DNA of 64,000 nt, taken from assembly GCF_009914755.1 (NCBI RefSeq), contig NC_060929.1. The stretch is one strand, 5' to 3'. The notes beneath the pieces were generated by a model. It was not told the origin of the DNA. It was given only the letters and a program-made list of their open reading frames with translations, and searched no databases. Shown piece by piece: positions 19,715 through 30,540 of this stretch. The translations under genes were made by a program, and so were the position numbers. Position 1 is the first letter of the stretch. The number at the start of each line of letters is the position of its first letter. This DNA comes from the human T2T-CHM13v2.0 reference genome, Homo sapiens.

Positions 19715-21051
19715 ATCTTATACTCTGCAACTTTACCAAATTCATTTATTAGCTTGTGTGTGTGTGTGTGTGTGTTGTTTGGAATTTTTCTTAAAATAGA
19801 ATTATGTCATTTTCAAATACAGATAGGTGAACTTCTTTGTTTCCAATGTGGATGTCTTATTTGTTCATATCATAGCTCTAGCTAGGACTTTCAGTACAAG
19901 GTTGAGTAACAGTGGTGAAAGTAGACATCCTTGTCTTGTTCCTGATCTTACCAGAAAAGCTTTCTGTCTTCCACCATTGAGTACAATGCTAGCTGTGGAA
20001 TGTTCATAAATGTCTTTTATCATGTTGAGGAAGTTTCCTTTTCTTTTCCTACTTTGATGAATATTTTTATCATGGAAGAGTGTTGGATTTTGTCAATTTT
20101 TTTGCATCTGAATTGACCATGTAGTATTTTTCCTCTATTCTATCAATGTGATCTATTGCCTCAATCCATTTTTAGATATTGAACCACTCTTGTACATCTG
20201 AGATTAATCCCACTTGGTCATGGAGTGTAATATTTTTACTGTGCTGTTGGATCCAGTTTGCTAGTATTGTGTTGAGGATTTCTGTATCTATATTCATAAA
20301 GGATATTAGGCTATAGTTTTCCTGTACTATTTTGTCTGACTTTAGTATTAGGGTAACATATTAGGAAGAATTTCCTTATCTTCTGTATTTTGGAGGGGCT
20401 TGAGTAATATTAGTGTCAGTGTTAATCCTTTTTGAAATGTGTAATATACCAGTGAAACCAACTGGCTCTGGGCTTTTCTTTGTTGGGAGTTTTGTTTCTT
20501 TTCTTTTCTTTTCTTTTTTTTAAAATGGATTCAATCTCTTTAATTGTTGTAGGTCAATTGACATTTTCTATTTCTTCTTGAGTCAGTTTTAGTAATTCAT
20601 GGTTTCTAGGAATTTATTCAGTTCATCTAAATTATCTAGTTTGTTGGCACTCATTTGTTCATACTAGTATCTTATAATCCTTTTATTTCTGTAAAGTTGG
20701 AAGTATTGTTTCCACTTTCATTTCTGATTCTAGTTATTTACATCTTATGTCTGTTTTTCTTAGCAACATAGCTAAATATTTATCAACTTTGTTGATTATT
20801 TCAAGGAACCAATATTTGGTTTTATTGATTATCTCTGTTTTTTTATTCTCTAGCTTGTCATCTCTGCTTTAACCTTTATTATATCCTTCCTTTTGTTGGC
20901 TTGTTGATGTGACATCTTTTTCATTTTGTAATGTAGGCATTTTCAGCTATAAACTTTCCTCTGCATCACATAAGTTTTTTTCTATATATATAGATACATT
21001 TTATATGTGCATATATAAACAAATAAACATATATGAGGATCTATGTAAAAA

Positions 21052-21341
21052 TTTTTTTTTGAGATGGAGTCTTGCTCTGTCACCCAGGCTGGAGTGCAGT
21101 GGTGTGATCTCGGCTCACTGCAAGCTCTGCCTCCCAGGTTTATGCCATTCTTCTGCCTCAGCCTCCCAAGTAGCTGGGACTACAGGTGCCCGCCACCACG
21201 CCTGGCTAATTTATTGTATTTTTAGTAGAGACGGGGTTTCACTGTGTTAGCCGGGACAGTCTCGATCTCCTGACCCTGTGATCCACCCGCCTCAGCCTCC
21301 CAAAGTGCTGGGATTACAGGCATGAGCCACTGCGCCTAGCC
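21052..21341 (-). mobile_element. AluY-like element
   Basis: Full Alu on minus strand; TSD GGATCTATGTAAAA (21037-21050 / 21343-21356). Confidence 0.95.
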
Positions 21342-21840
21342 TGGATCTATGTAAAATTACATACCATCACCCAATGCAGAACCCATGCATTAAATAAGTA
21401 AGTTGTCATCAACCTGAGACTGATGTTCAAGTAGTAACTTCTTTTTTCTTCTCAATCTCCTTTGTTCTTTTTTTAAAAAATGTTTTTATTTTTCCATAGG
21501 TTATTGGGGGTACAGATGGTGTTTGGTTACATGAGTAAGTTCTTTAGTGGTGATTTTTGAGATTTTGGTGCACCCATCACTCGAGCAGTATACACTGCAC
21601 CCTATTTGTAATCTTTTATCCCTCACCCCCCTCCCACCCTTTCCCCTAAGTCGCCAAAGTCCACTGTATTATTCTTATACTTTTGCATCCTCATAGCTTA
21701 GCTCCCATGTATCAGTGAGAACATATGACATTTGGTTTTCCATTTCTGAGTTATTCACTTAGAATAATAGCCTCCAATCTCATCCAGGTTGCTGCAAATG
21801 CCATTAATTCATTCCTTTTTATGGCTGAGTAGTATTCCAT

Positions 21841-28900: not shown

Positions 28901-29151
28901 GAAAGAATGTCCTTTAAGTGTAGAGAGTGAAATATATTGCAGGCAAACTCACATCTCCATGGTACCTAAAAGGCTCCCCTGATGCCTCCACCTGGTCACC
29001 AGGCCTAGACCTTGGCAAAACCCCCATCCCACCAATGTCTGGCTGCATCCCTCAGCCACTGGGCTGCCCTGCCTGGAGTTGCATGTGACATGGCACCTAC
29101 CTCCTCCTCACCTGCCAGCCCAGGCCTCCTCCTCCTGCTGCCGCCACCTCG
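25911..29151 (-). pseudogene. CUL1P1: Processed pseudogene of cullin-1 (5' UTR, intronless CDS 28788-26361, 3' UTR)
   Basis: Translated fragments match CUL1: [88 protein letters not shown]-terminal TYSYLA*. No introns; stop at codon 3 plus many stops and frameshifts; AATAAA at 25935-25930. Locus symbol from recall. Confidence 0.95.
26943..27337. repeat. 87 bp inverted duplication inside the pseudogene (26943-27029 vs 27251-27337)
   Basis: 27251-27337 is the reverse complement of 26943-27029 with about 5 substitutions. Confidence 0.95.
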
Positions 29152-30540
29152 TCCCATAAGTTTTTGTATGCTATGTTTTGTCTTCATTTGTTTCTAAATA
29201 TTTTTTAATTTGCCTTGTGATTTTTTCTTTGTCCCACTGGTTGTTTAAGAGTGTGTTATTTCTGTGTACGTGAAAATTTTTCAATTTTCCTTCTGTTATT
29301 GATTTTTAGCTTTATTCTCTATTGTTGTGAGAGAAGATACTTTAAATGATTTTATTCCTTCTAAATTTATTGAGAATTATTTTTATGAACCAAATTATAG
29401 CCTATCCTGGAGAATGCTTCATGTGCACTTGAAAAAATGTATATTTTTCTGTTGTTTTGTGGATTGTTCTATCTGTCATACTACGTCTGTTATGTCTAGT
29501 TGATTTATAGTGTAATTCAAGTCTATTTTCTTCTTGTTTTTCTGTGTAGATATTATATCCATTATGAAACTGGAATATTGCACTTTGAGAGGTCAAGACA
29601 GGCAGATCACTTGAGGTGAGGAGTTTGAGACCAACCTGGCCAACATGGCAAAACCTCATCAATTCTAAAAATACAAAAATTTGCTGGGCATCATAATGCA
29701 TGCCTGTAATCCCAGCTACTTGGAAGGCTGAGGCAGGAGAACCTCTTGAACCTGGGAGGTGGAGGTTATAGTGAGCCAAGATCACACCACTTCACTCCAG
29801 CCTGGGTAACAGAGTGAGACTTCACCTCAGAAAAAAAAAAAAAAAAAAAAAGGGGGGGACTATTGAAGTCTCCAACTATTCTCACAAAAGTGTCTACTTC
29901 TTCTGTAAATTCTATCAATAGTTGCTTCATGTATTTTGGGACTCCATTGTTTGGTGCATTTATGCGTATAGTTTTATATCTCCTTGACAAATTGCCACTT
30001 TTATCAATATGCAATGTATTCCTTTTACTTTTATAAAAATTTTTGACAACATCTATGTGACTATGTGACTATGAATATAGTCACATTGGCTGTTTTTGGG
30101 CTACAATTCACATGCAACATCTTTTTTCATTCTTTTACTTCCAACCTATTTGTTTCTTTGAGTCTAAAGTGAGTTTCTTATAATCAGCATATAATTGGAT
30201 CACACTTTAAAATTTATTCTGCTAGTTTCTGTCTTTAATTGGGAGTCAAAGTCACTTAAATTAAAATATTACTAATAATAAAGAACATACTTCTGCCACA
30301 TTGCTTTTCATTTTCTATATATTTTATGTCCTTTTTATTCCTCAATTCCTCCAATACTATCTTCTTTTGTGTTTGATTGATATTTTCTAGTGTTCCATTT
30401 TGATTCTGTATCTTTTGCAGTTATTTGCTCCTAGAATGTATATGTTAGTATGCTTAATAGTGTCCTGTAGGCCTCTTAGGTTCTGTTTATTTCTCTTCAT
30501 TGTTTTTTCTTTCTGCTGTTCAGACTGGGTAATTCCAATT
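29152..30540 (-). mobile_element. Continuation of old L1M (ORF2 endonuclease region and ORF1-like fragment)
   Basis: Resumes 'cccataagtttttgtatg'; ORF fragments INAPNNGVPKYMKQ..IVGDFNSP and QSEQQKEK..NLRGLQDTIKHTNIYILG. Confidence 0.8.
29580..29850 (+). mobile_element. AluS/J, slightly 5'-truncated
   Basis: Alu dimer with A tail inside L1M. Confidence 0.9.

What the first reader, a model, noticed from the sequence alone, without database searches (positions are those of the whole stretch)
20966..29165. Apparent single chimeric retro-insertion: full CUL1 cDNA fused to L1 ORF2, inside one target-site duplication
Seen: the host L1M breaks at 20979 and resumes at 29152, with TCACATAAGTTTTT (20966-20979) and TCCCATAAGTTTTT (29152-29165) matching 13/14. 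On the minus strand this reads AAAAACTTATG.., like an L1-endonuclease TSD. Everything between is co-oriented on the minus strand: CUL1 5' UTR, CDS and 3' UTR, then an L1PB. The CUL1 copy ends ~19 nt after AATAAA with no poly(A) and runs directly (~25910) into the first codons of L1 ORF2 (..GGATTTCTAATTGAATGGTGCCTCACATCTCAATAC..). I found no convincing separate TSD around the L1PB. Known: L1 RT template switching creates 5' cellular RNA / 3' L1 chimeras, typically with U6 or other short RNAs. Inference: a ~7.5 kb chimera (excluding later Alus) in which a 3.2 kb mRNA replaces the L1 5' UTR and ORF1 while nearly all of ORF2 is kept. Standard annotation would list this only as a pseudogene next to an L1.
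Basis: partly seen in the sequence, partly recalled or inferred. Interest (0 to 1): 0.8.

Follow-up and report, generated by a model that had tools for sequence, protein, structure and literature searches.

The report
CUL1 mRNA fused to L1 retrocopy
A complete copy of the CUL1 messenger RNA sits joined, with no poly(A) tail between them, to an old L1 element inside one shared target-site duplication; it is most likely a single "chimeric" retro-insertion of a rare but already known kind, and it is long dead.

Summary
On the minus strand a 14-nt duplication of the host L1M (13/14; 29165-29152 and 20979-20966) encloses four parts:
- 2 extra nt
- a fully spliced CUL1 mRNA copy (29149-25912)
- an L1PB-like element starting one or two codons after the ORF2 ATG (25911 to ~21484) with its A-rich tail

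This last piece matches a single other locus, chr7:13.18 Mb, which has no L1 today. I read it as an orphan 3' transduction.

The CUL1 homology stops exactly at the gene's cleavage site. At most 2 A's separate it from the L1. Neither part has its own TSD. The junction and the transduced piece are each unique in the genome.

All three parts show the same per-lineage divergence, about 6-8%.

Best reading (~0.55): one TPRT event in which reverse transcription passed from an L1 read-through RNA to the 3' end of a tail-less CUL1 mRNA.

Main rival (~0.27): the L1 landed in the A-tail of a slightly older CUL1P1 with a TSD of 2 bp or less. Only orthologous primate loci can separate these two, and they are not available here.

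This is a known class (chimeric retrogenes) and an unusual member of it.

The parts
29152..29165 (-). 5' copy of the target-site duplication (AAAAACTTATGGGA on the minus strand), host L1M sequence
29150..29151 (-). 2 nt (CG) not matching host or CUL1 promoter; possibly untemplated 5' nucleotides added at the mRNA cap
   Evidence: Published mRNA/L1 chimeras list similar 5' untemplated G, C and TGGG.
25912..29149 (-). Fully spliced CUL1 mRNA copy (CUL1P1): 5' UTR from an upstream TSS, whole CDS with many stops and frameshifts, and 3' UTR up to the cleavage site
27254..27360 (-). Later 107-nt insertion inside the CUL1 copy. It contains an inverted duplicate (27251-27337) of 26943-27029 and is flanked by a 19-nt direct duplication of CUL1 sequence. 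It explains the two 'exons' in the RefSeq annotation.
25907..25912 (-). CUL1/L1 junction: last CUL1 base at 25912; AA at 25911-25910 could be L1 or the first 2 A's of a poly(A) tail; no filler
21484..25911 (-). L1PB-like element from ORF2 codon 2-3 to the 3' UTR end. It is interrupted by an Alu and by microsatellites.
24741..25040 (-). Later Alu insertion inside the L1, with its own TSD (ACCTCTGGGA / ACCTCTAAGA)
21464..21483 (-). A-rich tail of the L1; under the transduction reading it is the tail of the source element
20981..21463 (-). Non-L1 segment of 177 nt once the AluY is removed. It is homologous to C7:13178828-13179006 (148/181). I read it as a 3' transduction.
21037..21342 (-). Later AluY insertion (21051-21342) plus the second copy of its 14-nt TSD (21037-50). 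The first TSD copy is at 21343-21356.
20980..20980 (-). The only A between the transduced segment and the 3' TSD; there is essentially no visible terminal poly(A) beyond the 5 A's of the TSD
20966..20979 (-). 3' copy of the target-site duplication (AAAAACTTATGTGA)

Best explanation
I read this as one L1-mediated target-primed reverse transcription event, roughly 50-65 million years ago. The date is inferred from about 6-7% divergence per lineage and recalled primate substitution rates.

Proposed sequence of events:
- The L1 endonuclease nicked a host L1M at TTTTT/G.
- Reverse transcription began on a read-through transcript of an active L1PB-like element. That element then sat at chr7:13.18 Mb and was never fixed there. 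The transcript carried about 177 nt of 3' flank and ended at a cryptic poly(A) site.
- The enzyme copied the flank, the L1 tail, the 3' UTR and all of ORF2.
- One or two codons after the ORF2 ATG, synthesis continued on the 3' end of a CUL1 mRNA that had no tail, or at most 2 A's. It ran to the capped 5' end of that mRNA.
- Second-strand synthesis then produced the single 14-bp TSD.

Shown:
- the anatomy
- the single TSD
- the flush junction at the CUL1 cleavage site
- equal ages of the parts
- uniqueness of the junction and of the transduced piece
- absence of an L1 next to the CUL1 gene

Inferred:
- that the two parts arrived together
- that the joining was an RT template jump onto an RNA 3' end, rather than a ligation or trans-splicing of the two RNAs beforehand
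- that the chr7 piece is a transduction
For: - TSD: one 14-nt TSD (13/14) with host colinearity across the empty-site model (0 of 300 shuffles).
- No inner TSD.
- Junction: CUL1 homology ends at the exact base where the gene's transcript is cleaved. The gene continues with non-L1 sequence, so the L1 was not downstream of CUL1.
- No A-tract at the junction (at most 2 A's). An older A-rich tract in the same insert, the L1 tail at 21464-21483 and its surroundings, has survived.
- Ages agree. CUL1 part: non-CpG 212/2948 = 7.2%; codon positions 1+2, 74/1243 = 5.95%. L1 part: star-branch 6.3% non-CpG and 6.9% all sites against 5 copies; 116/2017 = 5.8% private changes. Transduced piece: 27 mismatches in 175 aligned bases, 7.7% per lineage.
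- The post-L1 piece starts at an AAAAG run in chr7, right after the L1 tail. It ends about 21 nt after an ATATAAA and about 18 nt before a T11GTTG run in the chr7 copy, which looks like a poly(A) site.
- The 2 extra 5' nt fit cap-related untemplated bases seen in published chimeras.
- L1 chimeras formed by template switching or RNA ligation are an established class (PMC13174262, PMC4476161 and PMC2104539; passages read).
Against: - No cross-species data, so contemporaneous arrival is not shown.
- The equal ages only limit a gap between two events to roughly 15-20 Myr or less.
- The bottom strand at the end of a polyadenylated CUL1 retrocopy would read T(n)/AGAAATCC. That is a good L1 endonuclease site, so a later co-oriented L1 insertion exactly there is mechanistically natural.
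- A jump that lands exactly at the last non-A base of an mRNA is itself a low-probability outcome unless the mRNA lacked a tail.
- The terminal poly(A) expected of a TPRT product is almost absent (1 A plus the 5 A's of the TSD).
- The proposed source L1 is not present at chr7:13.18 Mb.
- The cleavage site is TTTTT/G rather than the consensus TTTT/A.
Confidence: 0.55

Rival explanations
1. Two nested events. CUL1P1 was made first as an ordinary processed pseudogene, with a poly(A) tail and the 14-bp TSD. Soon after, the L1 with its transduced flank inserted at the boundary between the 3' UTR and the A-tail (bottom strand TTTT/AGAAATCC). The break was blunt or staggered by 2 bp or less, or a small deletion occurred. 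The remaining A-tracts were later lost.
For: - Poly(A) tails are preferred L1 targets and force co-orientation (established knowledge of the TTTT/A preference; see PMC4476161).
- The UTR ends ...TTTCT, so a tail would create a TTTT/A site exactly at the observed junction.
- The age estimates cannot separate events less than about 15-20 Myr apart.
- Nested insertions are named as the main confounder for chimera calls (PMC13174262).
Against: - It needs a TSD of 2 bp or less, or a deletion ending within 2 nt of the UTR/tail boundary.
- It needs near-total loss of three A-tracts: the inner TSD, the L1 transcript tail and the rest of the CUL1 tail. Only 1 extra A remains at the 3' end, while an older A-rich tract inside the same insert persists.
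- The direct clock for the L1 event (transduced piece, 7.7% per lineage) is not younger than the CUL1 clock (6.0-7.2%).
Confidence: 0.27
2. A single event with three RNA templates (a tripartite chimera). Reverse transcription started on an unrelated polyadenylated transcript from chr7:13.18 Mb, jumped to the poly(A) tail of an L1 RNA, then jumped to CUL1 mRNA.
For: - No L1 lies at the chr7 locus today.
- Double template switches are described: two human tripartite elements are mentioned and one fungal case is documented in PMC2104539.
- The chr7 homology begins at an A-run that could pair with a poly(A) tail.
Against: - It needs one more RNA and one more jump than a 3' transduction.
- The chr7 homology starts exactly where a source element's TSD would start, at an A-run that is a tolerable endonuclease site (TTTT/C on the bottom strand).
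- An unfixed source element is the expected fate of most active L1 copies (inference).
- No evidence of transcription at that chr7 site was available here.
Confidence: 0.1
3. The two RNAs were joined before reverse transcription, by RNA ligation or trans-splicing, or the composite was copied from a lost composite source locus. On this reading the insertion is an ordinary retrocopy of a chimeric RNA.
For: - RNA ligation and trans-splicing are both proposed for L1 chimeras (PMC13174262).
- The junction uses a true RNA end, the cleavage site, which an end-joining reaction would do.
Against: - The junction is not at a splice donor or acceptor. The CUL1 side is the poly(A) cleavage site. No AG precedes the L1 start in 8 of 8 L1 copies.
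- The known ligation route (RtcB) needs a 2',3'-cyclic phosphate end, which mRNA 3' cleavage does not give (recalled).
- No second copy of the junction exists in the genome.
Confidence: 0.06

Closest known systems
U6/L1 and other bipartite chimeric retrogenes (Buzdin-type; reviewed in PMC4476161 and PMC2104539)
   Same: - 5' cellular RNA copy and 3' 5'-truncated L1 in the same orientation
- one TSD around both parts
- an L1-endonuclease-like target
- the 5' partner complete to its own 3' end
   Different: - The 5' partner here is a 3.2-kb spliced, full-length Pol II mRNA rather than a ~100-nt Pol III RNA.
- The L1 part is about 4 kb (nearly all of ORF2).
- The terminal poly(A) is almost absent.
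- I could not read Buzdin et al. 2003 (not held), so I cannot say whether this locus is in its list.
mRNA/lncRNA-L1 '5' transduction' chimeras of the TiMEstamp catalogue (Cell Genomics 2026, PMC13174262)
   Same: - host Pol II transcript sequence fused 5' of an L1 inside one TSD
- untemplated 5' nucleotides
- source gene without an intronic L1
   Different: - In the rows of Table S5 that I read (part 1 of 3), the gene-derived pieces are about 85-220 nt.
- The paper's text says the sense-oriented chimeras incorporate the first exon, and that six of them end precisely at splice donors, suggesting trans-splicing.
- Here the whole mature mRNA is present and the junction is its cleavage/polyadenylation site.
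- CUL1 has 0 occurrences in the paper's text and in its 4 readable tables, and Table S5 lists no chr5 locus.
L1 3' transduction with an 'orphan' source
   Same: - unique non-L1 sequence between the L1's own A-rich tail and the terminal TSD
- a match to one other locus
- an end downstream of a poly(A)-signal-like hexamer with a U-rich downstream element
   Different: The source locus carries no L1 in this genome. No sibling insertions share the transduced tag.
MINE elements of Magnaporthe (WEIRD RNA-MGL LINE chimeras; PMC2104539)
   Same: A full-length copy of a ~1-kb cellular transcript fused to a 5'-truncated LINE, flanked by one TSD.
   Different: MINE is a recurrent family of 31 or more copies with switch hot spots. 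This human junction is a single copy.

Membership tests
L1-mediated bipartite chimeric retrogene | DNA copies of two different transcripts fused head-to-tail in the same orientation | tested here: met
   CUL1 exons and L1 ORF2/3' UTR both lie on the minus strand and are flush at 25912/25911.
L1-mediated bipartite chimeric retrogene | One TSD flanks the whole; neither part has its own | tested here: met
   Outer 14-nt TSD, 13/14, 0 of 300 shuffles. Inner candidates are at chance level (168/300 and 260/300). The host is colinear across the site.
L1-mediated bipartite chimeric retrogene | L1 endonuclease-type target site and 3' poly(A) | tested here: inconclusive
   The target is TTTTT/G on the bottom strand, a variant of TTTT/A. 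Only 1 A lies between the insert and the 5 A's of the TSD.
L1-mediated bipartite chimeric retrogene | Both parts arrive at the same point in phylogeny | not testable with these tools
   No other primate genome is held ('has no relatives here'). As a proxy, divergence is equal within error.
Ordinary processed pseudogene (stand-alone) | Intronless mRNA copy with its own poly(A) tail followed directly by the 3' TSD | tested here: not met
   It is intronless. At most 2 A's follow the cleavage site, and the next sequence is L1, not the TSD.
L1 3' transduction | Unique non-L1 sequence after the L1 tail and before the TSD, matching one donor locus | tested here: met
   21463-20981 matches only C7:13178828-13179006 (148/181). 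The L1 body ends at about 21483.
L1 3' transduction | A source L1 lies immediately upstream of the donor sequence | tested here: not met
   There is no L1 3'-end homology anywhere in the 3.1-kb locus L012, which holds 1.5 kb upstream of the match. This needs an unfixed or lost source.
Nested L1 insertion into a retrocopy A-tail | A-rich TSD or A-tract on both sides of the inserted L1 | tested here: not met
   There are at most 2 A's at the 5' junction and 1 extra A at the 3' end. This does not exclude a blunt or short-TSD insertion.

The most novel reading that the evidence does not exclude
Both RNA ends used in this event were essentially tail-less. The CUL1 part stops at its cleavage site with at most 2 A's. 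The initiating L1 read-through RNA contributes about 1 A beyond the target's own A5. The L1 template was also left exactly at the ORF2 initiation codon.

Together these could mean that the L1 reverse transcriptase made an end-to-end jump. The jump would go from the 5' end of an ORF2-only (5'-shortened) L1 RNA onto the 3'-OH of a cleaved-but-not-yet-adenylated or fully deadenylated mRNA.

If so, this would be a natural record of where and on what kind of RNA the enzyme picks up passenger templates. At birth it would also have created a host-gene/ORF2 bicistronic unit lacking ORF1.
Probability: 0.2. Interest if true: 0.6.

Novelty: new member of a known kind. Interest (0 to 1): 0.42.

Why it matters
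Chimeric L1 insertions are the main natural evidence for template switching or RNA joining during human retrotransposition. Catalogued cases are dominated by small RNAs, or by gene-derived pieces of about 85-220 nt in the catalogue rows I read.

This candidate has several unusual features:
- An entire 3.2-kb mRNA is joined at its exact cleavage site to nearly all of ORF2.
- It carries an orphan 3' transduction that tags the source element.

If the primate orthologues confirm a single event, three things follow:
- It would show that about 7.7 kb can be copied across two templates in one event.
- It would point to a tail-less mRNA 3' end as the acceptor.
- It would show that the only CUL1 retrocopy in the human genome arrived as a passenger of an L1.

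The locus has no sign of function. The CUL1 frame is broken throughout, and codon positions 1 and 2 have diverged at nearly the same rate (35/616 and 39/627), as expected for unconstrained sequence.

For annotation: RefSeq's CUL1P1 is about 75 nt short at its 5' end. Its two 'exons' are an artefact of a later inverted duplication.

Tried and rejected
**Read-through or cis-splicing from the CUL1 locus.** Rejected. The gene continues with non-L1 sequence after the cleavage site. The chr7 match ends at the same base as the retrocopy.

**CUL1 and the transduced flank both lie on chr7.** Checked. They are 137 Mb apart (149.98 vs 13.18 Mb), so I treat this as coincidence.

**Separate TSDs for the L1 or for CUL1.** None above chance.

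**Further copies of the junction or of the transduced tag.** None.
- 1 of 40 scored matches spans the junction, and it is the window itself. 1500 first-look candidates were found and only the best 40 scored.
- 2 of 2 candidates scored, self and chr7.

**Inverted duplication inside CUL1P1 as an RT snap-back from the same event.** Rejected.
- The arms share 7 derived changes relative to CUL1, including 2 non-CpG amino-acid-changing ones. They differ from each other at only 5 of 87 positions.
- So it is a later DNA-level duplication, or the arms were homogenised by gene conversion.

**APOBEC-type strand-asymmetric G>A excess as a shared mark of one cDNA.** Not seen. CUL1 part: G>A 0.052 vs C>T 0.071. 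L1 part: 0.072 vs 0.080.

**Quick genome search for the 5' 212 nt.** It found only the window itself. A sensitive local BLAST against the fetched promoter region then found CUL1 exon 1 at 161/207 identity.

**Literature.**
- 'CUL1P1': 0 papers.
- CUL1: 0 occurrences in the text and in the 4 readable supplementary tables of PMC13174262. Three PDF supplements were not readable.
- Buzdin et al. 2003 and the 2004 review are not held. Whether this locus is listed there stays open.

**Not available or not done.**
- Cross-species comparison is not possible with the tools.
- Codon-position analysis left out 4 of the 21 internal exon blocks because of ambiguous frame, and also the first and last exon blocks.
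- The 5 L1 copies used for the star estimate are the 5 best matches. This biases the window's branch slightly downward.
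Full report
**Setting.** The window is human chr5:128,278,001-128,342,000 (T2T). The own genome could be searched, but no other primate is held. 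All features below read 5'->3' on the minus strand.

**Anatomy**. The order is:
- host L1M
- 5' TSD copy, AAAAACTTATGGGA (29165-29152)
- 2 unassigned nt, CG (29151-29150)
- CUL1 mRNA copy (29149-25912)
- L1PB-like sequence (25911 to about 21484)
- its A-rich tail (21483-21464)
- a 177-nt non-L1 segment (21463-20981), split by an AluY with its own 14-nt TSD
- a single A (20980)
- 3' TSD copy, AAAAACTTATGTGA (20979-20966)
- host L1M

A second Alu (about 25040-24741, with its own TSD) and microsatellites interrupt the L1. A 107-nt block (27360-27254) interrupts the CUL1 copy.

**The TSD and the host.**
- The two 14-mers match 13/14. With the boundaries fixed, a scan of 40-nt neighbourhoods allowing one mismatch returned exactly this pair, and 0 of 300 shuffles reached 14 nt.
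- Joining the 5' flank (with one TSD copy) to the 3' flank gives a sequence that aligns without a gap across the join to another L1M copy, L016. It also aligns to L015, with a gap further on.
- So the host lost nothing and gained a 14-bp duplication, the signature of target-primed reverse transcription.
- The nick site on the bottom strand is TTTTT/G.

**The CUL1 part.**
- The retrocopy aligns exon by exon, in order, to C7:149,880,721-149,982,804 with all introns removed, over retrocopy positions 3-3240. Exon 1 needed a sensitive search because 78% identity was too low for the quick one.
- A 129-aa frame hits Cullin-1 structures at E=5e-68.
- The copy begins about 75 nt upstream of the RefSeq pseudogene start, inside the gene's CpG-rich first exon/promoter region.
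- The two preceding bases match neither host nor gene. Published mRNA/L1 chimeras list similar untemplated 5' bases.
- At the 3' end the homology stops at 25912, 18 nt after AATAAA. The gene continues with unrelated, non-L1 sequence.
- No other CUL1 retrocopy was found. In one search, 13 of 13 candidates were scored, and every match outside the window itself lies on the chr7 gene.

**The L1 part and the junction.**
- In the junction search, 38 scored L1 copies matched from query base 79-89 onward, that is from 25912-25902. The one CUL1 match ended at base 79, that is 25912. There is therefore no filler.
- Only the AA at 25911-25910 is ambiguous between L1 and a poly(A) start.
- All 8 retrieved L1 copies continue upstream with L1 sequence. 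All 8 have an in-frame ATG zero or one codon before the point where the window's L1 begins (read by eye). The element therefore starts at ORF2 codon 2-3.
- Pfam finds RVT_1 (E=2e-9 and 6e-5) and a weak endonuclease match (E=2e-4, below the curated cut-off) in the broken frames. 4 of the 7 frames tried gave nothing.
- L1 homology ends at about 21483, followed by an A-rich stretch.

**The third component.**
- The 177 nt after the L1 tail have one relative in the genome, C7:13,178,828-13,179,006. That match is contiguous across the AluY gap, at 148/181 identity.
- In chr7 the homology starts at an AAAAG run and ends about 21 nt after ATATAAA and about 18 nt before T11GTTG, a plausible cryptic poly(A) site.
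- The 3.1-kb chr7 locus has no L1 3'-end homology.
- The simplest reading is a 3' transduction from a source L1 that sat there as an unfixed allele. A third RNA template is the alternative.

**Ages.**

| Part | Measure | Value |
|---|---|---|
| CUL1 vs gene | non-CpG sites | 212/2948 = 7.2% |
| CUL1 vs gene | CpG sites | 87/185 = 47% |
| CUL1 vs gene | codon positions 1+2 (parent nearly frozen) | 74/1243 = 5.95% |
| CUL1 vs gene | codon position 3 | 52/625 = 8.3% |
| L1 vs 5 best-matching copies (2.7 kb) | pairwise JC distance | 0.116-0.135 |
| L1 vs 5 best-matching copies (2.7 kb) | star-tree branch of the window copy | 0.069 all sites, 0.063 non-CpG |
| L1 vs 5 best-matching copies (2.7 kb) | private changes where the 5 others agree | 116/2017 = 5.8% |
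| Transduced piece vs chr7 | mismatches in aligned bases | 27/175, about 7.7% per lineage, s.e. about 1.5% |
| TSD copies | differences | 1 in 14 |

The three clocks agree. In particular, the only direct clock for the L1 event is not younger than the CUL1 clock. With recalled primate rates this is roughly 50-65 Myr, which is an inference.

**What this supports.** One outer TSD, no inner TSD, no A-tract at the inner junction, equal ages and no L1 beside the CUL1 gene all fit a single chimeric TPRT product. This is the class described for U6/L1 and other chimeras (PMC4476161, PMC2104539 and PMC13174262; passages read). The CUL1 side of the junction is a true RNA end, the cleavage site. I therefore favour an end-directed reaction, a jump onto the 3' end of a tail-less mRNA, over an internal switch. 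That step is inferred.

**What it does not exclude.**
- A polyadenylated CUL1P1 would present T(n)/AGAAATCC on the bottom strand, a good endonuclease site exactly at the observed junction. An L1 entering there is forced into the same orientation.
- That nested reading needs a TSD of 2 bp or less, or a deletion ending within 2 nt of the boundary.
- It also needs the later loss of three A-tracts, while an older A-rich tract in the same insert survives.
- I give it 0.27, against 0.55 for the single event with transduction, 0.10 for a three-RNA single event and 0.06 for pre-formed chimeric RNA.

**Rejected ideas.**
- Read-through or splicing from the CUL1 locus.
- A transduction family or further junction copies.
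- An APOBEC-type asymmetry shared by the parts.
- An RT snap-back origin for the inverted duplication in CUL1P1. Its arms share 7 derived changes and differ at only 5 of 87 positions, so it post-dates the insertion or was homogenised.

**Prior description.**
- 'CUL1P1' occurs in 0 papers of the library.
- CUL1 is absent from the text and the 4 readable tables of the 2026 TiMEstamp catalogue. In the rows I read, the gene-derived pieces of its 17 mRNA/lncRNA chimeras are about 85-220 nt. The paper's text says the sense-oriented ones incorporate the first exon, six ending at splice donors (Table S5 read in part 1 of 3; 3 PDF supplements unreadable).
- The 2003 catalogue of human chimeric retrogenes could not be opened, so prior listing there remains possible.

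**Verdict.** It is a new and unusually large member of a known class, with an extra 3' transduction. It shows no sign of function.

Noticed in passing
window 27251-27360 and 26943-27029: The CUL1 copy carries an 87-nt inverted duplicate of a segment 220 nt away (94% complementary). It sits inside a 107-nt insertion flanked by a 19-nt direct duplication of CUL1 sequence. The arms share 7 derived changes relative to CUL1, so it arose after the insertion or was homogenised by gene conversion. It is the reason RefSeq draws CUL1P1 as two 'exons'.
   Followed up: yes
window 29075-29149: The retrocopy extends about 75 nt further 5' than the RefSeq CUL1P1 annotation, into the CpG-rich first exon/promoter region of CUL1 (161/207 identity, heavy CpG decay). 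The source mRNA therefore started upstream of where the annotated pseudogene begins.
   Followed up: partly
L012 = G000:C7:13177359-13180446 (match at 13178828-13179006): This is the only other genomic copy of the 177-nt post-L1 segment. No L1 is present there. The homology begins at an AAAAG run and ends at a site with an ATATAAA hexamer upstream and a T11GTTG run downstream.
   Followed up: partly
window 25907-25911 versus L003-L010: The L1 part begins zero or one codon after the ORF2 initiation ATG (8 of 8 comparison copies). No explanation for a breakpoint exactly there was found. It could be chance, which I would put at the order of 1% allowing for several 'special' sites.
   Followed up: partly
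window 20980-20986: The insertion has almost no terminal poly(A). One A lies between the chr7-homologous ...ATAGA and the TSD, whose first 5 bases are A's.
   Followed up: partly
window 21037-21356 and 24731-25050: Two later Alu insertions on the same strand, each with its own TSD (14 nt identical; 10 nt at 8/10). The two Alus are 83-85% identical to each other.
   Followed up: partly
window 21840-21960 and 25417-25440: A (TA)/(TG)-type microsatellite expansion lies inside the L1 3' region, and a (CAA)n run lies inside the endonuclease region.
   Followed up: no
whole genome: With the retrocopy as query, the only matches outside the window are the exons of the chr7 gene. CUL1P1 appears to be the sole CUL1 retrocopy in this genome.
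   Followed up: partly
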